Origin: an uncultured Alphaproteobacteria bacterium
Lineage (GTDB): Bacteria; Pseudomonadota; Alphaproteobacteria; HIMB59; GCA-002718135
DNA: 64,000 nucleotides
Direction of reading: 5' to 3'
Assembly: GCA_902577425.1 (NCBI GenBank)
Contig: CACGZD010000001.1
Span: forward strand, 638,414 to 702,413
Of the stretch, positions 30,850 through 42,760 are shown in pieces. The position numbers and the translations under genes were made by a program. Every line of letters starts with the position of its first letter. Within the stretch, counting starts at the first letter, position 1. The notes under the pieces are model-generated. The model did no database searches, was not told where the DNA came from, and was given only the letters and a program-made list of their open reading frames with translations.

Positions 30850-30862
30850 TTATGGTTATCTT

Positions 30863-32185
30863 CTAGTTTTTAATTTTTTTTGCTGCTTTTGCATATTCTA
30901 TATTTCTTCCGCCATAACGTCTTAGACGTATGTTGCATTGTTCGGCATGACCAAGAAAACCTTCTAAATATGAAAGTCTAGAGCCATACTCACCTATTAA
31001 GGTCGCAGCTTCATCTGTTAAAACTTTTTGATATGTGTGTGTTTTGATAAATTTACCCACCCATAATCCGCCAGTATAACGTCCGGCTTTTTTAGTAGGT
31101 AGGGTATGGTTTGTTCCAATCACTTTGTCACCATTTGCAACATTGGTTCTTGGGCCAAGAAATAATGCACCGTAAGATTTCATATTTTCCAAAAACCAAT
31201 CATCTTTTTTTGTCATCACTTGCACATGTTCCGAGGCAATTTCATTTGCTTTATCAAGCATTTCTTCGTACGAATCACAAAGTATAACTGCACCGTAATC
31301 TCTCCAACTTATACTTGCTGTTTCTTTAGTTGGTAAAATTTGAAGAATTCTTTCAATCTCTAATAGAGTAGACTCTGCTAAATTTTTTGAATTTGTAATT
31401 AGAACTGCGGGTGAATTATATCCATGTTCAGCTTGCCCTAAAAGATCAGTAGCACATAATTCTCCATCTACAGTATTATCTGCAATAACCATTGTTTCCG
31501 TTGGGCCAGCAAATAAATCAATCCCCACTTTTCCAAATAATTGTCTTTTAGCTTCAGCAACATAAGCGTTACCAGGACCAACAAGCATATCAACTGGTTT
31601 TATTGTTTCAGTTCCTATTGCCATTGCACCTATACCTTGCATACCACCTAATACATATATCTCATGGGCTCCACCTAAATGCATAGCCGCAATTACTGCT
31701 GGATTAGGTTTGCTTTGAAATGGAGATGTAGTAGCTACTATTCTAGGGACATCTGCAACAGATGCTGTTACTACAGACATGTGTGCGGATGCTACCATAG
31801 GAAATTTTCCTGCAGGAACATAACAGCCAACTGATTGTACTGGAATATTTTTGTGACCTAATATCACTCCAGGTAGTGTTTCAACTTCTAATTCCTTTAA
31901 TGTTGCAAGTTGTGCTTCTGCAAATTGTCTTATTTGTTTTTGCGCAAATTTGATGTCCTCAATGTCATCTTCAGATACCTTACTAATTAAATTTTGAATC
32001 TCGGAATCTGTTAACCTAAAACTTGTTGGGGAATAATTATCAAATTTCTCTGACAATTCTCTAACATATTGGTCACCTTGTTGTTCTATTTTTTTTAATG
32101 TTTCTTCAACAATGTTTTTAACTTTATCATTCTCAGCTGATCGTTCTTGTTCAGCAATTCCTTTTTTCAAATATTGAATAGTCAT
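30863..32185 (-). CDS. HisD-family dehydrogenase, sulfopropanediol 3-dehydrogenase (HpsN)-like
   Basis: VGCYVPAGK, GPGNAYVAEAKR, AGPTE, DLLGQAEH, SEH and GTNHTLP motifs. The MTIQYLKKG N-terminus and GRYTGGLWVGKF are HpsN-clade-like; there are no his genes nearby. Confidence 0.75.
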   Translation of the reverse strand: MTIQYLKKGIAEQERSAENDKVKNIVEETLKKIEQQGDQYVRELSEKFDNYSPTSFRLTDSEIQNLISKVSEDDIEDIKFAQKQIRQFAEAQLATLKELEVETLPGVILGHKNIPVQSVGCYVPAGKFPMVASAHMSVVTASVADVPRIVATTSPFQSKPNPAVIAAMHLGGAHEIYVLGGMQGIGAMAIGTETIKPVDMLVGPGNAYVAEAKRQLFGKVGIDLFAGPTETMVIADNTVDGELCATDLLGQAEHGYNSPAVLITNSKNLAESTLLEIERILQILPTKETASISWRDYGAVILCDSYEEMLDKANEIASEHVQVMTKKDDWFLENMKSYGALFLGPRTNVANGDKVIGTNHTLPTKKAGRYTGGLWVGKFIKTHTYQKVLTDEAATLIGEYGSRLSYLEGFLGHAEQCNIRLRRYGGRNIEYAKAAKKIKN

Positions 32186-32188
32186 AAG

Positions 32189-33283
32189 TTATTTTTTATG
32201 TATTAAATCAAATATATCAACGTCTATCTGGTTAAGTATGTGTGCAATATCAATGGGCACCCAGTTTTCTCTTATTAATCCTTCGTGATGTAAATAAAAA
32301 TCCATAACTCTCATTGTTACTGATTTGCCTGTGCCTTCATATCCAAGCCATTCTTTTGAACCATGCTTACACTCTATGCTGTGCCAACCTGATGTCATCG
32401 AAAAATTGCCATCTGCAATTTCAATATAGTGTCCTATTTTCCAATAGTCTCTTTCCTTAAATGTTAGTCGAAATGGTAATTGATGATGATCAACATATCC
32501 TTTTAGTCCTCTTGCAGTACCTATACCACTAGGACCATACCACATCATTTTAGGATGCCAGAAATCTTTTTGTGCATGATTTAATAATTTCTCTCTTATA
32601 TATTCATAATTAGATCCAGGATCAGTTTCAGGTTTGATGTTTAAACTTCTTTGCATTGTTAAAGCTTGCTCCATAGATTTAATTGATAATTCATTATCCA
32701 TATTTTCAAATGTTGTACCATCACCGGTTATTGGTCCTGGCCACATACCTTCCGCGCCTAGAGATTTATTTACTGGCCAAAATCCAGCCTGACGAATAAA
32801 ATCTAAAGTATCAATTAAAATGTGAGATTGAATAATTTTATTATCTTTGATTTCATGCGCTTCACATATTCTAAGATGAATTGTTTTGGCATGAGCAGGA
32901 ACATTAAGCCATGGATTTACAAAAGTCCCTGTTAAATGAGCTACTGTAGAAACAAAAATTTTATCTTGAAAAGATCCTCCAAGAATTAGATTATCCCTTC
33001 TTTCAAGATCAGGAAATGCACTTATAAGTGGTTTCCATAATTTTTCTGTTATTTTAGAAATTCCTTTTAAGTCATTAAGTGGATGGAATGCTCTTATTAC
33101 CGCATCATCATGATACGCATCACTAATATTTTTATTAATATTTTCTAAATTGGATTCAGCTATATTTTTTAGAAGAATTCTAATTTTTTTTTTATTTGCT
33201 AAATTTATCTTTGGATCTAAATTAATGACTTCAGTACTTCCCTCTTTTTTTATTCCAGTATTAAAATTTTCAATGTTTGTCAT
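32189..33283 (-). CDS. Tandem SnoaL-like / ester cyclase (NTF2-fold) protein
   Basis: FPDLERRD, WYGPSGIGTARG and RVMDFY...IRENWV motifs; paralogous to 40892-41965. Confidence 0.75.
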   Translation of the reverse strand: MTNIENFNTGIKKEGSTEVINLDPKINLANKKKIRILLKNIAESNLENINKNISDAYHDDAVIRAFHPLNDLKGISKITEKLWKPLISAFPDLERRDNLILGGSFQDKIFVSTVAHLTGTFVNPWLNVPAHAKTIHLRICEAHEIKDNKIIQSHILIDTLDFIRQAGFWPVNKSLGAEGMWPGPITGDGTTFENMDNELSIKSMEQALTMQRSLNIKPETDPGSNYEYIREKLLNHAQKDFWHPKMMWYGPSGIGTARGLKGYVDHHQLPFRLTFKERDYWKIGHYIEIADGNFSMTSGWHSIECKHGSKEWLGYEGTGKSVTMRVMDFYLHHEGLIRENWVPIDIAHILNQIDVDIFDLIHKK

Positions 33284-33332
33284 AATTATTTAAATTTTAG
33301 TTACTCACAATTAGGCAAATTTTAAATTGATT

Positions 33333-33370
33333 TATTCAATATTTTGAATATTATTCATTAAAAATGAATA
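33333..33370. promoter_or_regulatory. Candidate operator array in a divergent promoter
   Basis: TATTCA/TGAATA half-sites at 33333, 33345, 33352 and 33365, including the palindrome TGAATA-T-TATTCA; a similar array lies at 37526-37563. Confidence 0.4.
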
Positions 33371-33389
33371 AAATATAATTTTTCCTAAA

Positions 33390-34358
33390 ATGTCAATAGA
33401 TATAGAAAAACGTCTAGCAAGATTTAATGATCTTATTCCCAGTAAGATCCCTTTTGTAGAAGGTAAGTTAAAAGGTCATCAGGATAGAAAAAATTATTCA
33501 ATTGTCGGACCAGGGGTAAGTGAAGATTCTAAGCAAAATGTAAAAATTGCTGAAGCTCACGGATTTAATATCGGGGCTGTAAGTGCTGCCCCAATGAATG
33601 GTTCAGGATTGCATAGTCATACAACTGCCGAGGTGTTTATTATACATGCTGGTTCATGGCGTTTTTATTGGGGAGTAAATGGCGAAGAGGGCGAAGTAAT
33701 TCTTAGCAAAGGAGATGTAGCATCATTTCCTACTAATATGTTTAGAGGATTTCAAAATGTTAGTGATGAAGAAGCCCTTATGTTTGTTGCGCTAGGTGAA
33801 GATGATCCAGGTGTTATTACGTGGACTCCAAGATTATTGAAAGAAGCAAATGAATCAGGAATGTTATTAATGGAAGATCGTTCATTGGTTGATCTTAATA
33901 AGCAAAAAGTGCCTGAGGGTAAGTTAGTAACAAAACCTCTTGAAGATAAGGAACTGGAAAGCTTTGACCATTATACCTCAGATGAAATTGAGAAATTTGT
34001 TATTCGTTATAATGATAATAAAAATTATGTTGATGATGAACATTATAATTCAAATTCAATAATTAATTATTTAGATTCATTTGAAATACATGGAAAAAAA
34101 ATTGAACCTAAAATTCCTCACAAAACAGGCTTTGGATTGACTCTATTAAAAGGTGTTTCAGCCCATATGCATGCGTATTCTATTAATTCATCTGAAGTTT
34201 ATAATTGTTTAAATGGCAAGTGGGAAGTCACATGTAATGATGAGAAAGTTATTCTCGAACCACGTGATAGTTTCTCTGCTCCAAAGAATTCTACAAGAAG
34301 TGTAAAACAGATAAGCAATGATGAGGGTAGTTTATTTATCGTTAGGCAATCAAATTAA
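33390..34358 (+). CDS. Bicupin-domain protein
   Basis: GSGLHSHTTAEVFIIHAGSWRF cupin motif 1, GDVASFPTNMFRGF motif 2, and a second degenerate cupin domain. Confidence 0.8.
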   Translation: MSIDIEKRLARFNDLIPSKIPFVEGKLKGHQDRKNYSIVGPGVSEDSKQNVKIAEAHGFNIGAVSAAPMNGSGLHSHTTAEVFIIHAGSWRFYWGVNGEEGEVILSKGDVASFPTNMFRGFQNVSDEEALMFVALGEDDPGVITWTPRLLKEANESGMLLMEDRSLVDLNKQKVPEGKLVTKPLEDKELESFDHYTSDEIEKFVIRYNDNKNYVDDEHYNSNSIINYLDSFEIHGKKIEPKIPHKTGFGLTLLKGVSAHMHAYSINSSEVYNCLNGKWEVTCNDEKVILEPRDSFSAPKNSTRSVKQISNDEGSLFIVRQSN

Positions 34359-34370
34359 TTTATTAAAAAT

Positions 34371-35342
34371 ATGAAGGGTTTTGATAAAAAATTTAAAGAT
34401 CTGCCTGATTATATTCTTAAGATTACCTATCAGATTTGGGAGGATAAAGATGTTGAGTCAATTAGGGAGTATTATGCAAAGGGAATTCCGGTAAGATCTC
34501 CTGATGGAGTTATCTACGGACCTGATAAAGTAGTAAAAGCAACTTATGCTACGCTTGACGAATTTCCAGATCGGCAACTTCTTGGAGAGGATGTTATTTT
34601 TATAGGTAATGAAAATGATGGTTATTTATCTTCGCATCGTATTTTAACAAAAGCGACTCATCTAAATGATGGAGTTTACGGAAAAGCCACAGGAATTAAA
34701 ATATCTTACAGAGTTATAGCAGATTGTGCTTGTAAAAATAATCAAGTTTATGATGAATGGTTGGTTAGAGATCAGGGAGCAATAGTCAGACAGTTAAATT
34801 TAGATCCAAAAACCTATGCTAAAACATTAATTGATAAGCAAGGCGGTGTAACAAAATGCTCTATACCTTTTAATCAAAATACACCTCTAGATTTAAAATA
34901 TACCCAGTTAAGTTTGCCTAAAAATAACACTGGTTATGAATATGCTGAAATATTAAAAACTATATTTCAAAAGGATTTGGATAGTATTGAAAAATTTTAT
35001 GACAGATCTATTAATCAAGAACAACCTAGTGGTCTTAAAGCGTATGGAGTAGACGAGGTTAAATCTTTTTGGTCATCAATTTTTTCTTCCTTTCCTGAAG
35101 CGACATTTAAAATTGAACATGTCAGTTATCTGGATGAGCCTGCAGCATATAGAAAAGCAGCGATAAGATGGTCTTTAAATGGTATCCACTCTGGTCCTGG
35201 GTATTTTGGCAATCCTAGTCAAACAGAAGTTTATGTAATGGGAATTTCTCATGCAGAATTTGGTCCCAGAGGTATAAAAAATGAGTGGGTTTTATTTGAT
35301 GAAACTGCAATATGGAAACAAATTTTAATGAAAACTGGTTAA
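34371..35342 (+). CDS. Tandem SnoaL-like / ester cyclase protein
   Basis: TLDEFPDRQLLGEDVI, DEWLVRDQGAI, SFPEATFKIEH, RWSL.G.HSG.G.FG and EWVLFDE motifs. Confidence 0.75.
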   Translation: MKGFDKKFKDLPDYILKITYQIWEDKDVESIREYYAKGIPVRSPDGVIYGPDKVVKATYATLDEFPDRQLLGEDVIFIGNENDGYLSSHRILTKATHLNDGVYGKATGIKISYRVIADCACKNNQVYDEWLVRDQGAIVRQLNLDPKTYAKTLIDKQGGVTKCSIPFNQNTPLDLKYTQLSLPKNNTGYEYAEILKTIFQKDLDSIEKFYDRSINQEQPSGLKAYGVDEVKSFWSSIFSSFPEATFKIEHVSYLDEPAAYRKAAIRWSLNGIHSGPGYFGNPSQTEVYVMGISHAEFGPRGIKNEWVLFDETAIWKQILMKTG

Positions 35343-35355
35343 GGATAGATAAACA

Positions 35356-36486
35356 TTGAATACGAAAATTTTAACAACCCATGTTGGAAGTTTACCACGT
35401 TCAAAAACATTATCTGAATTTCTTTTTGCTAAAGATAAGGGAGAAAGTTTTAATTTAAATGAGTTTGATGAAGTAGTATCTCAAAATGTGCATGAAATTG
35501 TAAAAAAACAATTAGATATTGGTATTGATTTTATCAGTGATGGGGAAATGAGTAAAATCAGTTATGCTACCTATGTCAAAGAGAGAATAAATGGCTTTTC
35601 TGGAGAAAGTGAAAGAAGAGCTCCTGCTGATTTGGATGCATTTCCCGAATATAAAGAAAAAATTGCCAAAAGTGGTGGAACGCCTACTTATACCCGTCCC
35701 TGTTGTACTGGAGAGCTGTCACTTAAAAAAAATAGTGACCTTTTAAAAGATATAAATAATTTTACATCTGCTCTTAAATCAAACAACCATAAAAACGGCT
35801 TTATGAACTCTGCTTCACCAGGGGTTATAAATGTTTTTTTACCAAACAAATATTATAAAAATGATGATGAGTATCTTGAAAAACTATCTTCAATAATGTC
35901 TGATGAATATGAAACAATTACATCAAAAAATTTATATTTACAAATTGATTGTCCTGATTTGGCTTTAGCTAGGCATATGAATTTCAAAGATATGGATGAA
36001 AAAAGTTTTTTACATCGCGCTGAAAAACAAATTGAAGCTCTCAATGCTTCTCTCGCAGCAGTTCCACAGGATCAAATTAGAATTCATATTTGCTGGGGTA
36101 ATTATGAAGGGCCTCATACTTTTGATGTTGCTTTGGAAAAAATTTTACCAATTGTTCTAAAAGCTAAAACTAAATACCTGTTAATTGAGTCTTCAAATCC
36201 AAGACATGCTCATGAATGGAAGGTGTTTGAGAATATTAAATTACCAAAAGATAAAGTTATTGTTCCAGGGGTTATTGATTCGACATCAAATTTTGTTGAA
36301 CATCCTGAAGTTGTTTCAGATCGACTTAGACAATTTGCAAGTGTTGTTCCAAAAGATCAGATTATGGCAGGTACAGATTGTGGTTTTAGTACATTTGCTG
36401 GATTTGGAAAAGTTGACGAGAAAATTTGTTATGAAAAATTAGGCTCCCTAGTTAAAGGTGCTAAAATAGCCTCAAATATAATTTGA
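35356..36486 (+). CDS. Cobalamin-independent methionine synthase II family / epoxyalkane:CoM transferase-like Zn enzyme
   Basis: TTHVGSLPR, SDGE, QIDCPDL, HICWGNY, IE..NPRH and TDCGF motifs (Zn ligands H-x-C...E...C); single barrel. Confidence 0.85.
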   Translation: MNTKILTTHVGSLPRSKTLSEFLFAKDKGESFNLNEFDEVVSQNVHEIVKKQLDIGIDFISDGEMSKISYATYVKERINGFSGESERRAPADLDAFPEYKEKIAKSGGTPTYTRPCCTGELSLKKNSDLLKDINNFTSALKSNNHKNGFMNSASPGVINVFLPNKYYKNDDEYLEKLSSIMSDEYETITSKNLYLQIDCPDLALARHMNFKDMDEKSFLHRAEKQIEALNASLAAVPQDQIRIHICWGNYEGPHTFDVALEKILPIVLKAKTKYLLIESSNPRHAHEWKVFENIKLPKDKVIVPGVIDSTSNFVEHPEVVSDRLRQFASVVPKDQIMAGTDCGFSTFAGFGKVDEKICYEKLGSLVKGAKIASNII

Positions 36487-36499
36487 ATTGTTAATTTTT

Positions 36500-37501: not shown

Positions 37502-37525
37502 TTATGCCTTTATCCACCGAAATAT

Positions 37526-37563
37526 TATTCATTACATTGCATATTTATTCAAAACAATGCAAT
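37526..37563. promoter_or_regulatory. Candidate operator array between lacI and the SBP gene
   Basis: TATTCA (37526), TGCATA (37538), TATTCA (37546) and TGCAAT (37558); spacing parallels 33333-33370. Confidence 0.4.
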
Positions 37564-37641
37564 ATATTTATTATAAATATTTATAATATTAATTCTCTTA
37601 ATATAACAATTTATTTTAAGGGTAATTAATAAGGAGGAAAA

Positions 37642-38883
37642 ATGTTATTTAAAAAACTAATATTAGTTGGATTTATTTCCCTATTTTTCAGCTCATCTTT
37701 GTATGCAGCTGATTGTGGACCGAATGGGCAATCAATCCGAATTCTAGCAAGTGATTTTCCAGCAATTCACGCAATAGCAAATTCTGCTGAAAGTAATTGT
37801 GCAGGATCTGCTTCTGAATTCAATCGAAATCATACTACCGAAGCACGTCAAATAATGAATGCTGCTCAAACACCAAATCCAGCAGAGTATACTTCAGTTA
37901 TTGTAGCTAACTCTACCCTAGTTCAATTAATGAACGATGGACTTGTTAGACCATTAGATGATTTAGTTGAAAAATATGGTGGTCACTTAAAATCTAACCA
38001 ACTGATAACTATTGATGGAAAAATAATGGCAATAGCGTTTATGGCAAATTCTCAGCACATGTATTATAGAACAGATATTTTAGAAAAATCTGGGGTTGAT
38101 GGAATACCAGCAACTTATGATGAAGTAATATCTGCTGCTGAAAAGATACGTGCAGCTGGTATCATGGAGCATCCACTTGTAATGAATCTCAAAGTCGGAT
38201 GGAATGTTGGTGAAGTATTTAACACTATATACCTAGCACATGGTGGAGAATTCTTTAAGCCTGGTAGTGCTGAAGCATCTATTAATAATGCCAAAGGTGT
38301 TGCTGCTCTAGAAACAATGAAAGCTCTTGTAGAGTATGCTCACCCTGATCATTTAACGCAGGCATCTGATGATACGCAAGGATTATGGGAAGCTGGTCAA
38401 GCGGCAATTGGCTTTATGTGGGGTTCTCGTGGAGGAGTTATACTAGATAATGAAGGTTCTTCAGCTGAAGTGACTTCAAATACTGTTTTATCTGCAGCTC
38501 CAACTGTTACTGGTGGCTCAATACCAGGAGCAACTCTATGGTGGGATGGAATAACTATAGCTACTAACGTGTCTGACAGTGAAGCAGAAGCAACGTTTGC
38601 AGCACTTGTAAGTGGTATGACTTCAGAAATGGTTGCTGCTAATAATGATGATGCAATTTGGTTAATTGATGGTTTTAAACCTGGTCCAGCTGCAGCAGGA
38701 GTTTCTGCAACTGCTCAAGGCGGTGCTAAATCTTACCCGATGTTTGCTCAAATGGGATTATTGCACAATGCATTAGGTGCAGAGCTAGTTGATTTTTTAA
38801 AGGGATCTGAGAGCGCTGAACAAGCACTTAGTGATGTAGAGGCTGTTTACGAAACAGCTGCTAAAGACGCAGGTTATCTGTAG
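37642..38883 (+). CDS. Carbohydrate ABC transporter substrate-binding protein (family 1)
   Basis: Signal peptide, YYRTDILEKSG.D.IPATYDE motif, and AAGGAGG RBS. Confidence 0.88.
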   Translation: MLFKKLILVGFISLFFSSSLYAADCGPNGQSIRILASDFPAIHAIANSAESNCAGSASEFNRNHTTEARQIMNAAQTPNPAEYTSVIVANSTLVQLMNDGLVRPLDDLVEKYGGHLKSNQLITIDGKIMAIAFMANSQHMYYRTDILEKSGVDGIPATYDEVISAAEKIRAAGIMEHPLVMNLKVGWNVGEVFNTIYLAHGGEFFKPGSAEASINNAKGVAALETMKALVEYAHPDHLTQASDDTQGLWEAGQAAIGFMWGSRGGVILDNEGSSAEVTSNTVLSAAPTVTGGSIPGATLWWDGITIATNVSDSEAEATFAALVSGMTSEMVAANNDDAIWLIDGFKPGPAAAGVSATAQGGAKSYPMFAQMGLLHNALGAELVDFLKGSESAEQALSDVEAVYETAAKDAGYL

Positions 38884-38905
38884 TCAATATAAATAAATCA
38901 GTAAA

Positions 38906-38933
38906 AAGGGGTTTTCAAATTTGAAAACCCCTT
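38906..38933 (+). terminator. Perfect 28-bp palindrome after the SBP gene (hairpin)
   Basis: AAGGGGTTTTCAAATTTGAAAACCCCTT equals its own reverse complement. Confidence 0.7.
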
Positions 38934-38963
38934 GTATCTTTCTATGTAATTTAAAATCGCATA

Positions 38964-39998
38964 ATGAAGCACAGCACATTCTTATTATTTTCTCTTCCTT
39001 CATTAAGTGTAATGTTTTTATTTATTGCAATACCTATAGTTTCTGTTTTTATTCAATCTCTGCATATTGAGCATAAACAAGTAATAATTGTTACAGAAAA
39101 TTGTGATCCTTTTGGATGTGAGACAACAACAGCTGTGGATACTGAAGCTTCCGCAAAGTTAAAAGAAAAAGCACCTCTTGGTAAATTTAATGGATTTAAA
39201 ACATATTCAAACAGAATGCATTTTGCATTTGATGAAGTAGGAGAAGCTTGGAAGAGCTCGGATAGTTTTACAGTTTTTACTAAAAAATTATATAATTACC
39301 CCCTATATAGAGCGCTCAGTTTCACTCTTACTTACACCTTCGTAGTTACTCCTTTTGTCTTATTTCTTGGTTTTTTAGTTGCCGTTGGAGTTAATAATCT
39401 TCCAAAGATGTTTAAAGGTCCAACAATTTTTGCATCTCTTCTTCCAATGATAGTTACACCTCTTGTTGGTTCATTGATACTTTTCTGGATGGTTGACGGT
39501 GATGGTGTGATTGGGGCTACACTCCAAAAAATATTTAATGATAATTCTCTTAGCTTGAAAGCATCACCTGTGCTTACCTGGATTATGTTGATGGTATACG
39601 GTATTTGGCATTTGATGCCTTTTAGTTTTATTGTTTTTTATGCAGGTCTTCAAACGGTTCCTCAAGAAACAATAGAGGCGGCAACAATAGATGGCGCATC
39701 AAAATTTCAAAGAATACGCCATGTTGTTATTCCTCATTTAATGCCACTTGCTATTTTCATCACTTTAATACTTTTGATGGATAATTTTAGAGTTTTTGAA
39801 CCAATCATAGGTTTTAGAGCAGAAGCGCACGCCACCTCAATATCGTGGTTAATATGGAATCATTTGCGAGAAAGTGCTTACCCTCTCTATAACGCCGCAG
39901 GTGCTACATCTATGGTTACTATTTTTGGTGTAGCAATTTTACTCTTGCCCGTACTAATTCGAACATGGCGAGATTTTAAAGAAAAAAATAAAGGTTAG
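38964..39998 (+). CDS. Carbohydrate ABC transporter permease (MalF-like)
   Basis: EAATIDGASKFQRIRHV EAA motif; multiple TM segments. Confidence 0.9.
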   Translation: MKHSTFLLFSLPSLSVMFLFIAIPIVSVFIQSLHIEHKQVIIVTENCDPFGCETTTAVDTEASAKLKEKAPLGKFNGFKTYSNRMHFAFDEVGEAWKSSDSFTVFTKKLYNYPLYRALSFTLTYTFVVTPFVLFLGFLVAVGVNNLPKMFKGPTIFASLLPMIVTPLVGSLILFWMVDGDGVIGATLQKIFNDNSLSLKASPVLTWIMLMVYGIWHLMPFSFIVFYAGLQTVPQETIEAATIDGASKFQRIRHVVIPHLMPLAIFITLILLMDNFRVFEPIIGFRAEAHATSISWLIWNHLRESAYPLYNAAGATSMVTIFGVAILLLPVLIRTWRDFKEKNKG

Positions 39999-40004
39999 GA
40001 ATTT

Positions 40005-40886
40005 GTGAATACAAAAATTGAAAATAAATTAACCCCAGTTCGTATTATTGCTTTTATATTTGTGGCTCTGTGGTTGGTTATTGCTATGTTTCCTTTTATT
40101 TGGACATTGTGGGGATCTTTCAAAGTACAAGCTGATTTTTTTTCAAAAGCTGATTGGTTAAATGCAATATTTGGCTTTCATACTGAAAAACAAACAGGCG
40201 GTTTTTTTACTATGGATGGATATTATGGCTCTTGGATTGAAGAAGAATTTTGGCGTGCCGTTATTAATACAAGCATAGTAGTATTTTTTACAGTTTTAAT
40301 TTCTCTTACTTTTGGAACTTTAGGTGGTTATGCTCTTGCAAGGTCTACTTATCGCTACGCCTTCTGGATTTTAATGGCAGGTCTTATCTTTCGTGCGATG
40401 CCTCATATGACTTTGATTTCAGGATATCTTCAACCTTTTTTTGCATGGAATGTTTGGGGAATTTTGCCTACAACAATAATTGTGCTTGTTGCAATTAATC
40501 AGCCTTTTACTCTGTGGATGCTACATTCATTTTTTTTAAACATACCAAAAGATTTAGATGAAAGCGCTATGTGCGATGGTTGTAATAGATTTCAAGCATT
40601 TAGATATGTGATCATTCCTATAATGTGGCCAGGGGTAATCACTACTGGATTATTTAGCTTCCTTCTTGCTTACAATGATTTTACAGTTACATCCATGTTG
40701 CTTTCAGATGAAAATGAAACAATGATTCCAGCAATTGCAAGTTTTCTAGGTACTGTCCAAGAAGAAGGTAAAGTAATGTATGCTGTAGCAGCCGTTGTTT
40801 CAGCAACTGCTCCATTATTCTTTTTTGTACTGTTTTTTCAAAGACAGATTGTTAGTGGATTAACAGCTGGAGCAGTAAAAGGTTAA
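40005..40886 (+). CDS. Carbohydrate ABC transporter permease (MalG-like)
   Basis: IPKDLDESAMCDGC EAA motif and FQRQIVSGLTAGAVKG C-terminus; GTG start. Confidence 0.9.
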   Translation: MNTKIENKLTPVRIIAFIFVALWLVIAMFPFIWTLWGSFKVQADFFSKADWLNAIFGFHTEKQTGGFFTMDGYYGSWIEEEFWRAVINTSIVVFFTVLISLTFGTLGGYALARSTYRYAFWILMAGLIFRAMPHMTLISGYLQPFFAWNVWGILPTTIIVLVAINQPFTLWMLHSFFLNIPKDLDESAMCDGCNRFQAFRYVIIPIMWPGVITTGLFSFLLAYNDFTVTSMLLSDENETMIPAIASFLGTVQEEGKVMYAVAAVVSATAPLFFFVLFFQRQIVSGLTAGAVKG

Positions 40887-40891
40887 AAGTA

Positions 40892-41965
40892 ATGAAATCA
40901 GAGCAATTAAAAAAATACTTTGAAGATTATCAAATAGCTACTCAAAATTTTAATAAAAATTCAATAAATAATTCTCTAACTAAATACTTCTCAGAACATT
41001 CTGTGTTTCAATTCTGTTATCCCTTTGGAACGTTTAATGGATTAGATAATTTTTTATCTAATTGTATCAATCCTCTTTTAGAAAGTATTCCAGATCTTGA
41101 AAGAAGAGATATGATTGTTATGGCAGGCACAACACCTGAAGATAAACACTGGGTAGGTACTATGGGTAATTATATGGGAACATTTTTAAAATCATTTTTA
41201 GATATTCCACCAACTGGTAATTTAGTTCATATGCGTTATCATGAGTTTTTCCAAATCGAAAATAATCAGATTATAGAAATGCAATCAATATGGGATCTAC
41301 CTGAACTGATGATCCAGGCCAATGCATGGCCAATGAGTCCTCAGCTAGGATCTTTTTTATGTACACCATCTCCGATGACCGGAGACGGTTTAAAAATAAA
41401 AGGCGATGGATCAAAAAATTTTGATCTTGTGATTAATATGCTTCAAGACATGGTTTTACACCCTAGTAATCCAGATCCACAAGTTATGAATTTAGATAAG
41501 TATTGGCACCCCAGATTTAATTGGTATGGACCAGCTGGAATTGGAACTGGAAGAGGTATAGCAGGATTTCGCCATTGGCATCAAATACCCTTCTTACGTG
41601 CAATGCCGGATAGAAAGGGAGGTTCATCAAATGATAGCTTAAAAAATGAGGGATTGAAGGATATGCAAACTCATTGGATATATGAAGGAGATTATGTCTG
41701 TGAAACTGGTTGGCCAAATATGCGATCTACAATATCACAAGATGGATGGATGGGTATTGCTCCTTCAAACCAGATTATAGAAATGCGGAGTTTAGATTTT
41801 TGGAGAGTTGAAAATAATCTTATAAGGGAGAATTGGGTTTTAGTAGATCTTCTGGATGTTTATCAGCAAATTGGCGTTAATGTTTTTGATAGAATAAAAG
41901 AATTTAACAAAGCAAGAAATGTTGGTGATATTAACATTTCTCAAGGACTTGATTTAATTAAATAA
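40892..41965 (+). CDS. Tandem SnoaL-like / ester cyclase protein
   Basis: IPDLERRD, WYGPAGIGTGRG, HQIPF and RSLDFWR...IRENWV motifs; paralog of 32189-33283. Confidence 0.75.
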   Translation: MKSEQLKKYFEDYQIATQNFNKNSINNSLTKYFSEHSVFQFCYPFGTFNGLDNFLSNCINPLLESIPDLERRDMIVMAGTTPEDKHWVGTMGNYMGTFLKSFLDIPPTGNLVHMRYHEFFQIENNQIIEMQSIWDLPELMIQANAWPMSPQLGSFLCTPSPMTGDGLKIKGDGSKNFDLVINMLQDMVLHPSNPDPQVMNLDKYWHPRFNWYGPAGIGTGRGIAGFRHWHQIPFLRAMPDRKGGSSNDSLKNEGLKDMQTHWIYEGDYVCETGWPNMRSTISQDGWMGIAPSNQIIEMRSLDFWRVENNLIRENWVLVDLLDVYQQIGVNVFDRIKEFNKARNVGDINISQGLDLIK

Positions 41966-41982
41966 ATATTGATATAGAAGAA

Positions 41983-42750
41983 ATGTATTTACAAAAATTT
42001 GAAGTCAAAAACAAAACTGCATTAGTAACGGGAGCAGGAAAAGGTTTGGGAAAAGCATGTGCTATTGCTTTGGCTGAGGCAGGAGCCAATCTCATTATAT
42101 TAAGTCGTACCAAAACTGACTTAACAAAAGTTGAAAAACAAATAATAAAATTAAATAGAAAATGTCGATCAATCGTATGTGATGTAACAAATTATGAAGA
42201 TGTAAAAAAAACTTTTTCCTCCATATCTAAGTTAGATATTCTTGTTAATAATGCTGGAACTAATAGACCTGAATATTTTACAAAAATTAAAAAAAAAGAT
42301 ATGGATGATGTTGTTGATTTGAATATTAAAGCCGCATTTCATATTGCACAATTGGCTTCAAAAATAATGCTAAGATCCAAAAATCGAAAGAAAGTTGGGG
42401 CTTCCATAATAAATATGTCTTCTCAATTAGGAAAAGTAGGAGCTCCACGCCGAAGTGTTTACAATATGACGAAATTTGGAATTGAAGGATTAACCAAAGG
42501 AATGGCTGTGGATTTAGCTAAACATAATATTCGTGTCAATTCAGTTTGTCCCACATTTGTTAAAACGCCAATGGTTGAAAAGTTTTTTAAAGATAAAGAA
42601 TTTATGAAATCTGTATTAAAAAACATTCCTTTAGGCAGAATAGGTTCAGAAAGCGATATTGCTACAGCTGTAGTGTATCTAGCCTCCAATGCATCATCAA
42701 TGATTACTGGCTCATCATTAGTAATAGATGGTGGTTGGACAGCAAAATAA
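41983..42750 (+). CDS. SDR oxidoreductase, HpsO-like
   Basis: TGAGKGLG, NNAGTNRP, YNMTK, CPTFVKTP and DGGWTA motifs. Confidence 0.8.
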   Translation: MYLQKFEVKNKTALVTGAGKGLGKACAIALAEAGANLIILSRTKTDLTKVEKQIIKLNRKCRSIVCDVTNYEDVKKTFSSISKLDILVNNAGTNRPEYFTKIKKKDMDDVVDLNIKAAFHIAQLASKIMLRSKNRKKVGASIINMSSQLGKVGAPRRSVYNMTKFGIEGLTKGMAVDLAKHNIRVNSVCPTFVKTPMVEKFFKDKEFMKSVLKNIPLGRIGSESDIATAVVYLASNASSMITGSSLVIDGGWTAK

Positions 42751-42760
42751 TTAAAATTTC

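What the first reader, a model, noticed from the sequence alone, without database searches (positions are those of the whole stretch)
30863..42750. 12-kb orphan catabolic module: HpsN-like + HpsO-like + three SnoaL proteins + bicupin + MetE/EaCoMT-like Zn enzyme
Seen: a self-contained, LacI-regulated module whose two outermost genes are the HisD-family and SDR dehydrogenases. It holds three tandem NTF2-fold proteins, a cupin, a single-barrel Zn thiol-alkyltransferase-family enzyme and a sugar-type ABC importer. Known: HpsN and HpsO oxidise or epimerise 2,3-dihydroxypropane-1-sulfonate; NTF2 folds include cyclases and epoxide hydrolases; the MetE-like family includes epoxyalkane:CoM transferase. 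The characterised hps operon lacks these extra genes and uses a TRAP transporter. Inference: an uncharacterised pathway for a cyclic or glycosylated organosulfur (or other diol-yielding) marine metabolite, moving as one cassette.
Basis: partly seen in the sequence, partly recalled or inferred. Interest (0 to 1): 0.7.

Follow-up and report, generated by a model that had tools for sequence, protein, structure and literature searches.

The report
Mobile catabolic island, unknown marine substrate
A 12-kb, 11-gene nutrient-uptake and breakdown cassette sits between repeated tRNA-Ser fragments in a streamlined marine bacterium; the same genes occur together in many marine and soil microbes, no searched paper assigns a substrate, and the substrate is probably not the sulfonate DHPS.

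Summary
Window 30863-42750 holds 11 intact genes: a HisD-family dehydrogenase, three two-domain SnoaL/NTF2 proteins, a bicupin, a single-barrel MetE-like Zn enzyme, LacI, a sugar-type ABC binding protein with two permeases (no ATPase), and an SDR.

The genes form one mobile unit. They lie exactly between two copies of the 3' 72 nt of the adjacent tRNA-Ser. The same 12.1-kb block, 99.6% identical, sits among different neighbours in another single-cell genome.

The gene set is not orphan. It recurs in about 35 SAR11-like genomes, on Roseobacter plasmids, and in OM60 Gammaproteobacteria, Bacteroidota and Chloroflexota.

The organosulfur reading is weak. The dehydrogenase is closest to HpsN but has G-K-F-P-M in place of the sulfonate-recognising motif G-R-Y-A/S-H. 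No desulfonating enzyme travels with the module, and the SDR is generic.

The MetE-like enzyme keeps all zinc and homocysteine ligands, and the bicupin resembles quercetinase-type dioxygenases. Fuller versions add RraA or HpcH pyruvate aldolases.

My best reading is an uncharacterised pathway for an O-methylated, hydroxymethyl-bearing cyclic metabolite. A mycosporine/gadusol-type substrate is a speculative candidate. No searched paper assigns this gene set.

The parts
28706..28795 (+). Complete tRNA-Ser(GGA); the presumed integration target at the head of a tandem array of islands
   Evidence: ARAGORN and Rfam. Its 3' 72 nt are repeated three times downstream.
30644..30715 (+). Partial tRNA-Ser copy (anticodon stem to the CCA end); left boundary of the module island
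   Evidence: 2 mismatches to the 72-nt core. Alignment A2. Repeat family D1.
30863..32185 (-). HisD-family Zn/NAD+ four-electron alcohol dehydrogenase. It belongs to a distinct subfamily, with motif G-K-F-P-M plus G-D-K.
   Evidence: PF00815, 437 bits. Nearest structures are HpsN 8v35/8wwe, 45-46% identity in my MAFFT alignment. The HpsN His126 motif is absent. It is 59-74% identical to the co-clustered orthologues in other phyla and on Roseobacter plasmids.
32189..33283 (-). Two-domain SnoaL/NTF2 protein (Sno1)
   Evidence: Pfam SnoaL in 2 stretches. AlphaFold2 model: pLDDT 91, pTM 0.90, two NTF2 domains. Foldseek top hits are the two-domain epoxide hydrolases MonBI-II and Lsd19 and single-domain polyketide cyclases.
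33333..33371 (.). Two adjacent palindromes, TATTCAA-N4-TTGAATA and TTATTCATT-N3-AATGAATAA, in the divergent Sno1/bicupin promoter region; candidate LacI operators
   Evidence: Sequence. Conserved in the LacI-bearing orthologous loci L004, L005, L007, L009, L023 and L026. Absent from the LacI-less loci L014, L028, L034 and L038.
33390..34358 (+). Bicupin. The N-terminal barrel carries a 2-His-1-Glu metal motif and an invariant Arg. The C-terminal barrel has no conserved metal ligands.
   Evidence: Pfam. Invariant H75, H77, E81 and R119. AlphaFold2 pLDDT 89.5. Foldseek top hits are quercetin 2,3-dioxygenases, oxalate decarboxylase and salicylate 1,2-dioxygenase.
34371..35342 (+). Two-domain SnoaL/NTF2 protein (Sno2), immediately upstream of the MetE-like gene
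   Evidence: Pfam. It forms its own cluster, present in 53 loci.
35356..36486 (+). Single-barrel MetE-like Zn enzyme (a 'core' cobalamin-independent methionine-synthase fold)
   Evidence: PF01717 only. All NCBIfam methionine-synthase hits fall below their cut-offs. S12, E64, D198, H244, C246, E278 and C342 are invariant in 81 of 81 homologues. HMMER aligns six of these onto the MetE residues (S, E, H, C, E, C); D198 was placed by my own motif comparison. The MetE residues are those defined in PMC7857596.
36500..37501 (-). LacI-family repressor
   Evidence: Pfam LacI plus Peripla_BP_1/3/4. All NCBIfam equivalogs are below cut-off.
37642..38883 (+). Family-1 (carbohydrate-type, CUT1) periplasmic binding protein
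   Evidence: SBP_bac_1 and SBP_bac_8. Only remote solved relatives: chitooligosaccharide, maltose and sulfoquinovosyl-glycerol binding proteins, at most 51 bits.
38906..38933 (.). Perfect 14+14 nt hairpin between the binding-protein and permease genes; a possible intra-operon attenuator
   Evidence: The function is inferred.
38964..39998 (+). ABC permease (UgpA/MalF-like)
   Evidence: BPD_transp_1
40005..40886 (+). ABC permease (MalG-like)
   Evidence: BPD_transp_1
40892..41965 (+). Two-domain SnoaL/NTF2 protein (Sno3), a paralogue of Sno1 (28% identity)
   Evidence: Pfam. Same cluster as Sno1. Alignment A4.
41983..42750 (+). Classical SDR oxidoreductase
   Evidence: adh_short and adh_short_C2. 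The nearest structures are an unnamed SDR-family dehydrogenase (4j2h), then KduD, gluconate 5-dehydrogenase and FabG.
42841..42912 (+). Partial tRNA-Ser copy; right boundary of the module island
   Evidence: 0 mismatches to the 72-nt core. Alignment A2.
43878..43949 (+). Third partial tRNA-Ser copy. It closes a further 1-kb island holding one ORF (43028-43792).

Best explanation
The module is a LacI-repressed uptake-and-catabolism island. It sits as one unit of a tandem island array at tRNA-Ser. It degrades a small, hydrophilic, probably O-methylated cyclic metabolite that carries a hydroxymethyl group next to a hydroxyl. It is not a DHPS/hps pathway.

Shown by the analysis:
- the gene content;
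- the cassette boundaries;
- conservation across phyla;
- purifying selection on all 11 genes;
- intact catalytic residues.

Inferred steps:
1. The family-1 ABC system imports the compound, using an ATPase encoded elsewhere.
2. The three two-domain SnoaL/NTF2 proteins perform cofactor-free hydrolysis, dehydration or isomerisation. The multiple paralogues may handle several substituents or related substrates.
3. The HisD-type Zn/NAD+ enzyme oxidises -C(OH)-CH2OH to -C(OH)-COOH. An oxygen of the substrate is bound at the zinc site where HpsN binds sulfonate.
4. The MetE-like enzyme uses a zinc-activated amino-acid thiol, most likely homocysteine, to remove a methyl (alkyl) group from the substrate. 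This would make methionine.
5. The bicupin, through its 2-His-1-Glu metal site, cleaves the unmasked enediol or catechol-type intermediate with O2.
6. The SDR adjusts a hydroxyl/keto group.
7. In fuller versions (Roseobacter, OM60, some SAR11-like genomes) an alpha/beta hydrolase, an Amidohydro_2 enzyme and an RraA- or HpcH-type class II aldolase finish the pathway, giving pyruvate plus a second keto acid.

The leading but unproven candidate substrates are compounds with the 4-deoxygadusol core (gadusol and mycosporine-like amino acids). See the section on the most novel reading.
For: Gene families and coordinates.

Cassette:
- Four same-strand copies of the tRNA-Ser 3' end bracket three islands, one of which is exactly the module.
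- The 12,148-bp block is 99.6% identical in SAG AG-414-E06, where its neighbours differ.

Conservation:
- The full set occurs in about 35 low-GC alphaproteobacterial genomes.
- In 42 distant loci found through the MetE-like gene, the window-type HisD gene is present in 20 and the cupin in 25.
- Single operons on Ruegeria sp. THAF33 and Octadecabacter arcticus 238 plasmids contain homologues of every module gene, plus an ABC ATPase, an alpha/beta hydrolase and RraA.

Selection: dN/dS is 0.05-0.16 for all 11 genes.

Regulation: the palindromes co-vary with the presence of LacI.

HisD-type enzyme:
- The catalytic E-H and D-K residues are kept.
- The sulfonate His126 is replaced by Met or Leu in every co-clustered orthologue.

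MetE-like enzyme:
- The HCEC zinc ligands and the S/E/D homocysteine ligands are invariant in 81 of 81 homologues (residue definitions from PMC7857596).
- It is paired with NTF2 genes even in haloarchaea and sphingomonads. In Novosphingobium pentaromativorans it lies next to a ligM-type O-demethylase, metF, purU and ligAB cluster.

Bicupin: conserved HxHxxxE plus Arg. Its nearest folds are O2-dependent bicupins.

Lower pathway:
- An HpcH aldolase is present in 16 loci.
- An RraA-like aldolase is present in 9 SAR11-like loci and in both Roseobacter operons.
- Amidohydro_2 is present in 12 loci.
Against: - No step has been tested biochemically, and the substrate is unknown.
- The window's own version lacks the aldolase, the alpha/beta hydrolase and the ABC ATPase, so it may depend on genes elsewhere or yield a different end product.
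- A family-1 binding protein and a LacI regulator usually signal a carbohydrate.
- Simple alkyl methyl ethers are poor methyl donors for a thiolate. The methyl-transfer step therefore needs an activated ether (enol or aryl), or another donor altogether.
- The thiol could be something other than homocysteine.
- Structural neighbours of the bicupin and the NTF2 proteins are distant (TM 0.3-0.6, 10-19% identity), so they constrain the chemistry only loosely.
- No SAM or other riboswitch links the module to methionine metabolism.
Confidence: 0.45

Rival explanations
1. One reading: an organosulfonate pathway. A DHPS-containing or DHPS-like conjugate is imported, and an HpsN/HpsO pair oxidises it.
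For: - HpsN is the nearest solved relative of the HisD-family enzyme (373 vs 264 bits for HisD).
- The Lys that hydrogen-bonds the sulfonate in CpHpsN is retained as G-D-K.
- In Pelagibacter sensu stricto the module lies next to a pta gene and a true HpsN-motif (GRYAH) gene.
- In L005, L012 and L033 a GRYNN-type paralogue is present; in L005 it occupies the same operon slot as the window's gene.
- A sulfatase is nearby in 4 distant loci, and cysQ-cysD-cysNC lie upstream in 8 SAR11-like loci.
Against: - The HpsN-defining His126 motif is missing in the window and in every distant co-clustered orthologue.
- No SuyAB, Xsc or CuyA gene and no HpsKLM TRAP transporter lies in or beside the module in any lineage.
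- The SDR has no specific link to HpsO.
- The MetE-like, bicupin and SnoaL genes have no role in known sulfonate catabolism.
- The Pelagibacter hpsN lies in a separate, convergent operon.
Confidence: 0.1
2. Catabolism of methoxylated aromatic compounds (algal or lignin-derived phenolics of the syringate or 3-O-methylgallate type). The MetE-like enzyme would demethylate the substrate, the bicupin would cleave the ring, and a LigI/J/K-like lower pathway would follow.
For: - In Novosphingobium pentaromativorans pLA3 the MetE-like plus NTF2 pair sits beside ligM-like, metF, purU and ligAB genes.
- RraA-like aldolase, Amidohydro_2 and alpha/beta hydrolase genes accompany the core elsewhere.
- The bicupin's nearest folds are ring- or enol-cleaving dioxygenases.
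- Thiolate cleavage of aryl methyl ethers is established chemistry (my own knowledge).
Against: - The importer and regulator are of the carbohydrate type.
- A HisD-type 1,2-diol or amino-alcohol oxidase has no obvious substrate among simple methoxybenzoates, yet it is the most conserved gene of the set (59-74% identity across phyla).
- The carriers include extreme open-ocean oligotrophs.
Confidence: 0.15
3. A non-phosphorylative pathway for an unusual (methylated or deoxy) sugar or sugar acid. The SDR oxidises the sugar, a lactonase opens the lactone, and a class II aldolase releases pyruvate.
For: - The module has a family-1 sugar-type ABC system and a LacI regulator.
- Among named solved enzymes, the SDR is nearest to KduD and gluconate 5-dehydrogenase.
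- Relatives carry Amidohydro_2 (the lactonase family) and HpcH aldolase.
- An SSS symporter and a TonB receptor replace the ABC system in Gammaproteobacteria.
Against: - No glycoside hydrolase, kinase or IlvD/enolase-type dehydratase was among the Pfam-annotated conserved gene clusters or in the annotated Roseobacter operons.
- No sugar isomerase (KduI, RmlC) appears among the bicupin's top 50 structural matches.
- Sugar methyl ethers are chemically inert to thiolate attack (my own knowledge).
- Three to six NTF2 paralogues per cluster are unexplained.
Confidence: 0.15
4. Salvage of 5-methylthioribose-type or other thioether metabolites to recover reduced sulfur. The cupin would act like acireductone dioxygenase. 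The HisD-type enzyme would act on 3-methylthio-1,2-propanediol, a DHPS analogue.
For: - A hydrophobic Met or Leu replaces His126.
- A weak acireductone dioxygenase match falls on the cupin metal motif.
- A HAD hydrolase is present in 26 loci.
- SAR11-type cells need reduced sulfur (my own knowledge).
Against: - No kinase, isomerase or MtnB-like gene was seen among the annotated conserved genes.
- A thioether is not a methyl donor.
- Aldolases that yield pyruvate do not fit methionine salvage.
- Nothing in the neighbourhoods is specific to sulfur.
Confidence: 0.05
5. A biosynthetic cluster for a small natural product, as the 'ester cyclase / polyketide cyclase' annotation of the SnoaL genes suggests.
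For: NCBI names the SnoaL genes 'ester cyclase' with a polyketide GO term. Their nearest folds are polyketide cyclases.
Against: - No PKS, NRPS, terpene synthase or exporter is present.
- The cluster has an importer with a periplasmic binding protein and a LacI-type repressor.
- It carries pyruvate aldolases and hydrolases typical of catabolism.
- The hosts have streamlined genomes.
Confidence: 0.03

Closest known systems
HpsN (R-DHPS-3-dehydrogenase, EC 1.1.1.308) and the hpsKLM-hpsNOP DHPS pathway
   Same: - HisD fold.
- Nearest solved structures are 8v35 and 8wwe, at 45-46% identity.
- The catalytic Glu-His pair and the Asp-Lys pair are conserved.
- It is likely to catalyse the same four-electron oxidation of a primary alcohol next to a hydroxyl.
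   Different: - The motif is G-K-F-P-M instead of G-R-Y-A/S-H, so the sulfonate-contacting His126 is absent (PMC11382572).
- It forms its own subfamily across phyla.
- The transporter is an ABC system, not a TRAP system.
- There is no HpsP, and no SuyAB, Xsc or CuyA.
- It travels with MetE-like, bicupin and SnoaL genes.
'Core' cobalamin-independent methionine synthases (MesA-D; YxjG/YxjH-like 1ypx), PF01717
   Same: - A single (beta/alpha)8 barrel without the folate-binding N-terminal barrel.
- HCEC zinc ligands and S/E/D homocysteine ligands are all conserved.
- The best solved hit is the YxjG/H-like protein 1ypx.
   Different: - It scores below every NCBIfam methionine-synthase cut-off.
- No MesX (DUF1852) or corrinoid-protein partner is present.
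- It is embedded in a LacI-controlled catabolic operon and is consistently paired with SnoaL/NTF2 genes.
- The methyl or alkyl donor is unknown.
- Nothing specifically favours the epoxyalkane:CoM transferase reading. The retained amino-acid ligands argue for an amino-acid thiol.
Protocatechuate 4,5-cleavage / gallate lower pathway (LigI, LigJ, LigK)
   Same: Relatives of the module carry Amidohydro_2 (the LigI/LigJ family) and an RraA-like aldolase (the LigK family) or an HpcH aldolase, next to the MetE-like and cupin genes.
   Different: - The window itself lacks these genes.
- The ring-cleaving candidate is a bicupin, not a LigAB or GalA-type extradiol enzyme.
- No orthology to LigI, LigJ or LigK was tested.
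Bicupin dioxygenases (quercetin 2,3-dioxygenase YxaG/QueD; salicylate and gentisate 1,2-dioxygenases) and acireductone dioxygenase
   Same: The bicupin architecture is the same. The metal motif HxHxxxE lies in the N-terminal barrel. These enzymes are the top Foldseek matches.
   Different: - Identity is only 9-14% and TM about 0.5-0.6.
- The motif-2 His is replaced by an invariant Arg.
- The C-terminal barrel has no metal ligands.
- Activity is untested.
Two-domain NTF2 enzymes (polyether epoxide hydrolases Lsd19 and MonBI-MonBII) and SnoaL-type cyclases
   Same: Two fused NTF2 barrels. These are the top structural matches.
   Different: - Whole-chain TM is only 0.3-0.4, because the domains are oriented differently.
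- The family's own conserved motifs (WYGPxGIG, HQxPF, DFWR, ENW) are not those of SnoaL or limonene epoxide hydrolase.
- The context is catabolic.
tRNA-targeting integrative islands that leave arrays of partial tRNAs (e.g. tycheposon islands of Prochlorococcus, bioRxiv 10.1101/2020.12.28.424599)
   Same: A full tRNA is followed by same-strand partial 3' tRNA copies that bracket successive cargo blocks. The cargo is a nutrient-acquisition module.
   Different: - None of the 55 ORFs of 120 aa or more that were scanned with Pfam has an integrase or replication hit. The five not scanned are 2325-6845 and four between 58453 and 61456.
- The host is a low-GC alphaproteobacterium.
- Only the window's lineage shows this arrangement (the window, and SAG AG-414-E06 as L001/L003). 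Other carriers hold the module in other chromosomal or plasmid contexts.

Membership tests
HpsN (DHPS-3-dehydrogenase) | HisD fold (PF00815), with HpsN as the nearest characterised relative | tested here: met
   PF00815, 437 bits. 8v35 scores 373 bits and 8wwe 349 bits, against 264 bits for the best HisD.
HpsN (DHPS-3-dehydrogenase) | HpsN-specific loop motif G-R-Y-A/S-H, whose final His (His126 in CpHpsN) binds zinc and the sulfonate (PMC11382572) | tested here: not met
   The window has G-K-F-P-M. All distant co-clustered orthologues and the Roseobacter copies have G-[KR]-[FY]-P-[ML].
HpsN (DHPS-3-dehydrogenase) | Catalytic Glu318/His319, Asp352, and the sulfonate-contacting Lys353 | tested here: met
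   ASEH and GDK are conserved in the alignment.
HpsN (DHPS-3-dehydrogenase) | Genomic association with DHPS uptake (HpsKLM TRAP), HpsO/HpsP, and a sulfolactate or sulfoacetaldehyde desulfonation route | tested here: not met
   None of these is in the module or among the conserved neighbours. Only Pelagibacter loci have a separate pta-hpsN (GRYAH) operon next door.
HpsN (DHPS-3-dehydrogenase) | Low-Km, stereospecific oxidation of R-DHPS to R-sulfolactate | not testable with these tools
   This needs an enzyme assay. SAR11 'HpsN' and 'HpsO' homologues assayed by others had Km values near 100 mM (PMC11131964). Whether those proteins are orthologues of this one is unknown.
HpsO (SDR DHPS-2-dehydrogenase) | Specific relatedness to characterised HpsO, beyond the shared SDR fold | tested here: inconclusive
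   It is a classical SDR. The top 60 solved relatives are 4j2h (an unnamed SDR), KduD, Gno, FabG and the like; none is named as a DHPS enzyme. No HpsO sequence was on hand for a direct comparison.
Cobalamin-independent methionine synthase catalytic family (PF01717; 'core' MetE) | Meth_synt_2 barrel with His-Cys-Glu-Cys zinc ligands | tested here: met
   PF01717, 61 bits against a cut-off of 21. H244, C246, E278 and C342 align to the MetE ligands and are invariant in 81 of 81 homologues.
Cobalamin-independent methionine synthase catalytic family (PF01717; 'core' MetE) | Homocysteine-binding Ser, Glu and Asp (E. coli S433, E484, D599; PMC7857596) | tested here: met
   S12, E64 and D198 are invariant in 81 of 81 homologues. 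S12 and E64 are aligned to MetE by HMMER. D198 was placed by motif comparison (inference).
Cobalamin-independent methionine synthase catalytic family (PF01717; 'core' MetE) | Membership of a named methionine-synthase family (MetE with the folate barrel; MesA-D with their partners) | tested here: not met
   There is no N-terminal Meth_synt_1 domain. All NCBIfam equivalogs are far below cut-off, e.g. 102 against 406 bits. No DUF1852 or corrinoid protein was seen in the neighbourhoods.
Epoxyalkane:coenzyme M transferase | Use of coenzyme M and an epoxide, in an alkene-oxidation gene context | not tested
   No EaCoMT sequence was compared. No alkene monooxygenase or CoM-pathway genes were seen among the annotated neighbours. 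The retained amino-acid ligands point to an amino-acid thiol.
SnoaL/NTF2-like superfamily | The alpha+beta cone fold, here duplicated within one chain | tested here: met
   Pfam SnoaL in 2 stretches in each of the three proteins. The AlphaFold2 model has pLDDT 91 and two NTF2 domains. Foldseek single-domain TM (normalised to the target) is 0.6-0.8.
tRNA-targeting integrative element (tycheposon-like island) | Element flanked by direct repeats made of a partial copy of the target tRNA | tested here: met
   72-nt tRNA-Ser 3' copies lie at 30644-30715 and 42841-42912, with the full gene at 28706-28795 and a further copy at 43878-43949.
tRNA-targeting integrative element (tycheposon-like island) | An integrase (tyrosine or serine recombinase) carried by the element or nearby | tested here: not met
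   None of the 55 ORFs of 120 aa or more that were scanned has an integrase Pfam hit. The five not scanned are 2325-6845 (1506 aa) and 58453-59229, 59251-59796, 59874-60617, 60614-61456. Several small or unannotated ORFs also remain.

The most novel reading that the evidence does not exclude
The module may be the first catabolic pathway for mycosporine-like amino acids and gadusol. These are the UV-sunscreen C7-cyclitols of phytoplankton, corals and cyanobacteria.

The proposed chemistry is inference from enzyme families plus textbook structures:
1. The SnoaL paralogues hydrolyse the enaminone/imine C-N bonds. This frees glycine and other amino acids and leaves 4-deoxygadusol.
2. The HisD-type enzyme oxidises the C5 hydroxymethyl, which sits next to the tertiary OH, to a carboxylate. 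The acidic enolate oxygen would occupy the zinc site where HpsN binds sulfonate.
3. The MetE-like enzyme transfers the activated 2-O-methyl (an enol ether) to homocysteine. This makes methionine and unmasks an aci-reductone.
4. The bicupin cleaves the aci-reductone with O2.

C2-C3 cleavage would give exactly 4-carboxy-4-hydroxy-2-oxoadipate. That is the substrate of LigK, which belongs to the RraA family, the same family as the aldolases that follow the MetE-like gene in the Roseobacter operons; orthology to LigK was not tested. A CO-releasing cleavage would instead give citrate, which needs no aldolase and would fit the window's own gene set.

If this is right, the pathway supplies glycine, methionine and TCA-cycle carbon to glycine- and reduced-sulfur-dependent SAR11-type cells. 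It would also define a new cofactor-free O-demethylase.
Probability: 0.2. Interest if true: 0.85.

Novelty: new variant of a known kind. Interest (0 to 1): 0.62.

Why it matters
What the most abundant ocean heterotrophs (SAR11 and its look-alikes) actually eat is a long-standing question. This is a complete, strongly conserved, regulated and horizontally mobile uptake-plus-catabolism module, and it has no assigned substrate.

- It is common in marine metagenomes. Single bicupin clusters hold up to 954 member sequences.
- It also occurs in cultivable Roseobacters: Ruegeria sp. THAF33, R. conchae, Octadecabacter arcticus 238 and Marinovum algicola DG 898. Solving it is therefore practical.
- It would correct a likely mis-annotation. 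HpsN-like genes of this subfamily may be miscounted as DHPS genes in similarity-based surveys.
- It may reveal a new role for the 'core MetE' fold: removing a methyl group from a catabolic substrate onto homocysteine.
- The partial-tRNA array shows how such modules are shuffled between streamlined genomes.

Tried and rejected
- **Literature.** None assigns this gene set.
- **Riboswitches.** An Rfam scan of the whole window found only the tRNA and the SRP RNA. No SAM or other riboswitch lies near the module.
- **Solved-structure sequence searches.**
  - Sno1 gave nothing useful.
  - The bicupin gave only generic cupin hits.
  - The binding protein gave only remote sugar-binding proteins, so no ligand could be inferred.
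- **The window's own HpcH aldolase.** I asked whether the gene at 24745-25563 supplies the missing lower-pathway aldolase. It is only about 25-32% identical to the co-clustered HpcH family and belongs to a separate neighbouring cluster, so this was rejected as evidence.
- **Integrase.** I looked for an integrase to go with the tRNA repeats and found none among the 55 ORFs of 120 aa or more that were scanned.
- **EaCoMT-like epoxide chemistry.** Considered and set aside. The amino-acid ligands are retained and no alkene or CoM genes are present.
- **Biosynthetic 'ester cyclase' reading.** Rejected, because the cluster has an importer, a repressor and aldolases.
- **Second LacI operator.** In the LacI/binding-protein intergenic region I found only degenerate half-sites in this window.
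- **Host taxonomy.** The nearest public genome is labelled only 'uncultured Alphaproteobacteria' (SAG AG-414-E06). A HIMB59/AEGEAN-169 affiliation is a guess.

Full report
**What is in the sequence.** The window has about 30% G+C and looks like a streamlined marine alphaproteobacterial chromosome. Core genes lie on both sides of the region: a glutamate-synthase small-subunit-like gene, IF-3, PheST, LepA and DnaX.

| Coordinates | Strand | Pfam assignment |
|---|---|---|
| 30863-32185 | - | HisD family (PF00815, 437 bits) |
| 32189-33283 | - | two-domain SnoaL (Sno1) |
| 33390-34358 | + | bicupin |
| 34371-35342 | + | two-domain SnoaL (Sno2) |
| 35356-36486 | + | Meth_synt_2 only, 376 aa (MetE-like) |
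| 36500-37501 | - | LacI repressor |
| 37642-38883 | + | family-1 solute-binding protein |
| 38964-39998 | + | ABC permease |
| 40005-40886 | + | ABC permease |
| 40892-41965 | + | two-domain SnoaL (Sno3) |
| 41983-42750 | + | classical SDR |

No ABC ATPase is encoded in the module. NCBIfam places none of these proteins in a curated equivalog above its cut-off, apart from the generic hisD domain model.

**The module is a physical cassette.**
- A complete tRNA-Ser(GGA) lies at 28706-28795.
- Its 3' 72 nt, from the anticodon stem to the CCA end, recur on the same strand at 30644-30715, 42841-42912 and 43878-43949, with 0-2 mismatches. Each copy sits inside a longer repeat of about 230 nt.
- These copies delimit three successive islands:
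  - a 2-kb island with three small ORFs;
  - the 12.1-kb module, which contains exactly the eleven genes;
  - a 1-kb island with one ORF.
- A 12,148-bp block (window 30828-42975) is 99.6% identical in the single-cell genome AG-414-E06. There it again lies between tRNA-Ser fragments. An NmrA-like gene, which in the window lies 10 kb away, sits at its left end, and the outer neighbours are unrelated.
- This is the signature of repeated site-specific integration at a tRNA, as described for Prochlorococcus islands (bioRxiv 10.1101/2020.12.28.424599).
- No integrase hit appeared in the ORFs that were scanned.
- Other carriers hold the module elsewhere. In related single-cell genomes it lies downstream of cysQ-cysD-cysNC. 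In Roseobacters it is on plasmids, flanked by IS elements in Octadecabacter.

**The gene set is conserved well beyond chance.** I scanned one genome per GTDB species with an alignment of the MetE-like protein. The scan returned 493 relatives, of which 80 loci were kept. I then searched the loci held so far for each module protein with tblastn.
- About 35 low-GC marine alphaproteobacterial loci carry the whole set. These include single-cell genomes labelled 'uncultured Alphaproteobacteria' and 'MarineAlpha5'.
- Pelagibacter HTCC8051, HIMB1495, HIMB1587, Uisw_092 and nBUS_29/30 carry it without LacI, without the SDR and without the window-type HisD gene.
- In the 42 distant loci (MetE-like identity 50-55%), the window-type HisD gene is present in 20 and the bicupin in 25. 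SnoaL genes are present in most of these loci.
- These distant loci come from Halioglobus and other Gammaproteobacteria, Flammeovirgaceae, Hyphomonas, Lysobacterales and several Chloroflexota.
- A HisD-family gene is normally present once or twice per genome. Chance would therefore put one within 10 kb in roughly 1% of loci (my rough estimate).
- A protein search of plasmids added cultivable carriers. Ruegeria sp. THAF33 has a single operon in this order: ABC ATPase, binding protein, two permeases, SnoaL, hisD, SnoaL, SDR, LacI, SnoaL, cupin, a SAM methyltransferase, MetE-like, alpha/beta hydrolase, RraA. Octadecabacter arcticus 238 has the same operon without the methyltransferase.
- Identity of these operons to the window proteins is 74% for HisD, 52% for MetE-like, about 50% for Sno2 and 50-58% for Sno3.
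- All eleven genes are under purifying selection, with dN/dS of 0.05-0.16 against L004. Synonymous divergence is mosaic along the block: 0.24-0.46 for the transporter and Sno3 genes and 0.7-1.8 for the rest. This pattern suggests recombination inside the module.
- The proteins are abundant in marine metagenomes.

**The HisD-family enzyme is HpsN-like but not an HpsN.**
- Its nearest solved relatives are the DHPS-3-dehydrogenases CpHpsN and RpHpsN (373 and 349 bits). The best true histidinol dehydrogenase scores 264 bits.
- The structural study of CpHpsN defines a motif that separates HpsN (G-R-Y-A/S-H) from HisD (G-S-A-P-L). The final His126 ligates zinc in the resting enzyme and hydrogen-bonds the sulfonate of the substrate (PMC11382572).
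- The window protein has G-K-F-P-M at this position. It keeps the catalytic Glu-His pair and the Asp-Lys pair.
- Every orthologue that co-occurs with the MetE-like gene in other phyla, and both Roseobacter copies, have G-[KR]-[FY]-P-[ML] plus G-D-K.
- Among 150 representatives of the superfamily this combination forms one class beside HpsN-type and at least two G-D-Y classes.
- In Pelagibacter sensu stricto the module lacks this gene. It lies next to a separate pta-hpsN operon whose product has the true GRYAH motif. In L005, L012 and L033 a GRYNN paralogue is present; in L005 it occupies the window gene's operon slot.
- I conclude that the reaction type is probably the same: four-electron oxidation of a primary alcohol beside a zinc-bound hydroxyl, with a second zinc-binding oxygen three bonds away. 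The substrate is probably not a sulfonate.
- Published assays of SAR11 'HpsN' and 'HpsO' homologues gave Km values near 100 mM for DHPS (PMC11131964). I could not establish whether those proteins are orthologues of this one.
- The SDR shows no specific tie to HpsO.

**The MetE-like enzyme.**
- It is a single catalytic barrel. Its best solved match is the YxjG/YxjH-like protein 1ypx.
- Price et al. list the residues that define a methionine synthase active site: zinc ligands H641, C643, E665 and C726, and homocysteine ligands S433, E484 and D599 (PMC7857596).
- The equivalents here are H244, C246, E278 and C342, and S12, E64 and D198. Six align to MetE in HMMER output; D198 was placed by my own motif comparison. 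All seven are invariant in all 81 homologues examined, including the Ruegeria, Octadecabacter, Halobellus, Novosphingobium and Rhodococcus proteins.
- The protein falls below every NCBIfam methionine-synthase cut-off and has none of the known partners.
- Its most persistent neighbours are SnoaL/NTF2 genes.
  - On a Halobellus limi plasmid, five 'ester cyclase' genes precede it.
  - On Novosphingobium pentaromativorans pLA3 it overlaps an NTF2 gene. It lies beside a ligM-type O-demethylase, metF, purU and ligAB.
- This supports, but does not prove, a role in moving a methyl group from a catabolic substrate to homocysteine.

**SnoaL proteins and the bicupin.**
- An AlphaFold2 model of Sno1, built from 53 aligned sequences, has pLDDT 91 and pTM 0.90 and shows two NTF2 domains.
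- The best PDB matches are the two-domain polyether epoxide hydrolases MonBI-MonBII and Lsd19, with whole-chain TM of only 0.3-0.4. Single-domain matches (IdmH, AclR, ChaU, SnoaL, PhzA/B and limonene epoxide hydrolases) reach TM 0.6-0.8.
- The family has its own conserved motifs, mainly in the C-terminal domain: WYGPxGIG, HQxPF, DFWR and ENW.
- The bicupin has invariant H75, H77 and E81. An invariant Arg119 sits where the motif-2 His normally lies. No metal ligands are conserved in the second barrel.
- Its model (pLDDT 89.5) is closest to quercetin 2,3-dioxygenases, oxalate decarboxylase and salicylate 1,2-dioxygenase. No sugar isomerase appears in the top 50.
- These matches are distant and only suggest O2-dependent cleavage of an enol, diketone or catechol.

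**Accessory genes point to the end of the pathway.** Clustering the ORFs of all loci gave these recurrent partners:
- HpcH/HpaI aldolase, in 15 distant loci and one Pelagibacter locus;
- Amidohydro_2, in 12 loci;
- a 250-aa alpha/beta hydrolase, in 21 loci;
- an RraA-like aldolase, between Sno2 and the MetE-like gene in 8 SAR11-like loci (and in a ninth locus, L043) and after the MetE-like gene in the Roseobacter operons;
- a HAD hydrolase, in 26 loci;
- an SSS symporter and a TonB receptor, which replace the ABC system in Gammaproteobacteria;
- a sulfatase, in four loci.

Two unrelated families of class II pyruvate aldolases in the same position argue that the pathway ends in a 4-hydroxy-2-oxo acid that is split to pyruvate and a second product. 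The window's version lacks these genes. Its nearby HpcH gene (24745-25563) belongs to a different cluster and is only about 25-32% identical to the co-clustered family.

**Regulation.** The divergent Sno1/bicupin promoter region carries two adjacent palindromes, TATTCAA-N4-TTGAATA and TTATTCATT-N3-AATGAATAA. They are conserved in the LacI-bearing orthologous loci although the DNA is only 73-80% identical overall. They are absent from the LacI-less loci. They are good operator candidates.

**Most likely mechanism, and how sure I am.** I commit to an inducible catabolic island for a small hydrophilic compound that carries both a hydroxymethyl-carbinol and a transferable methyl group. The steps are those listed under Best explanation, and my confidence is about 0.45.

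One specific scheme accounts for every conserved gene: catabolism of the 4-deoxygadusol core of gadusol and the mycosporine-like amino acids.
- Oxidising the C5 hydroxymethyl, removing the 2-O-methyl and cleaving the resulting aci-reductone between C2 and C3 gives 4-carboxy-4-hydroxy-2-oxoadipate. That is the substrate of the RraA-family aldolase LigK.
- A CO-releasing cleavage would instead give citrate.
- The multiple SnoaL paralogues would remove the amino-acid substituents.

This scheme is my own inference from the structures of these compounds and from family chemistry. I found no paper on mycosporine catabolism. I give it about 0.2.

The rivals remain open: sulfonate, methoxy-aromatic, unusual sugar and thioether salvage.

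**Limits.**
- No substrate, activity or expression was measured.
- ORF calling in the high-GC loci was crude.
- Only 80 of 493 relatives were inspected.
- Host taxonomy is not established.
- Structural matches are remote.

Noticed in passing
window 28796-30643 and 42913-43877: Two further small islands sit in the same partial-tRNA-Ser array. The first has three ORFs (28835-29344; 29352-29981; 29982-30542), the latter two with MORN-repeat hits. The second has one ORF (43028-43792) with no Pfam hit. A homologue of the 209-aa ORF (60% identity) lies in the AG-414-E06 array, at L003 18617-19843.
   Followed up: partly
window 20244-28687: A second, unrelated catabolic cluster lies just upstream of tRNA-Ser. 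It holds an NmrA-like gene, a 2OG-Fe(II) oxygenase, an unannotated 656-aa ORF, a GFO/IDH/MocA oxidoreductase, an HpcH/HpaI aldolase and a CUT2-type ABC system (Peripla_BP_4, ATPase, BPD_transp_2). In AG-414-E06 only the NmrA-like gene (97% identical) is present, fused to the left end of the module.
   Followed up: partly
window 44036-47328: A very low G+C stretch (21%) begins immediately after the last tRNA fragment. It encodes a nucleotidyl transferase, an NAD-dependent epimerase/dehydratase, a GT2 glycosyltransferase and a PhyH-family dioxygenase. It looks like a cell-surface glycosylation (hypervariable) region. More glycosyltransferases lie at 7619-10764.
   Followed up: no
L028-L039 (Pelagibacter loci), e.g. 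L034 3627-5884: In Pelagibacter sensu stricto the module lies next to a pta (phosphate acetyltransferase) gene and a HisD-family gene with the true HpsN motif GRYAH (57% identical to CpHpsN). A glycine-betaine-type ABC system (OpuAC) lies on the other side. These may be the SAR11 DHPS genes discussed in PMC11131964.
   Followed up: partly
L004, L005, L008-L010, L012, L017, L024 (upstream of the module): In related single-cell genomes the module lies directly downstream of cysQ-like (inositol monophosphatase family), cysD and cysN/cysC fusion genes, which make PAPS. This is unexpected for organisms thought to depend on reduced sulfur.
   Followed up: no
L086 (Novosphingobium pentaromativorans US6-1 pLA3) 8995-16892: A 45%-identical MetE-like gene overlaps an NTF2 gene. 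It sits beside an IclR regulator, a ligM-like aminomethyltransferase, an alpha/beta hydrolase, metF, purU and ligAB. This ties the MetE-like/NTF2 pair to methoxy-aromatic and C1 metabolism.
   Followed up: partly
L085 (Halobellus limi plasmid) 3753-10146: Five consecutive SnoaL 'ester cyclase' genes (four of them two-domain) are followed by a MetE-like gene, 39% identical to the window's, in a haloarchaeon. A site-specific integrase lies 6 kb away.
   Followed up: no
window 17558-18718 and 18755-19957: An ORF with an HNH endonuclease domain, and an adjacent 400-aa ORF without any Pfam hit, lie between the core gene lepA and the NmrA-like gene.
   Followed up: no
window 38906-38933: A perfect 14+14 nt G+C-containing hairpin (AAGGGGTTTTCAAA/TTTGAAAACCCCTT) lies between the binding-protein gene and the first permease gene. 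It may be an attenuator that sets the excess of binding protein over permease.
   Followed up: no
module genes, window vs L004 and L023: Synonymous divergence is mosaic within the module. Against L004 the binding protein-permease-Sno3 block has dS 0.24-0.46 and the other genes 0.7-1.8. Against L023 the HisD, bicupin and SDR genes are the similar ones (dS about 0.6). Sub-blocks of the module therefore appear to recombine independently.
   Followed up: partly
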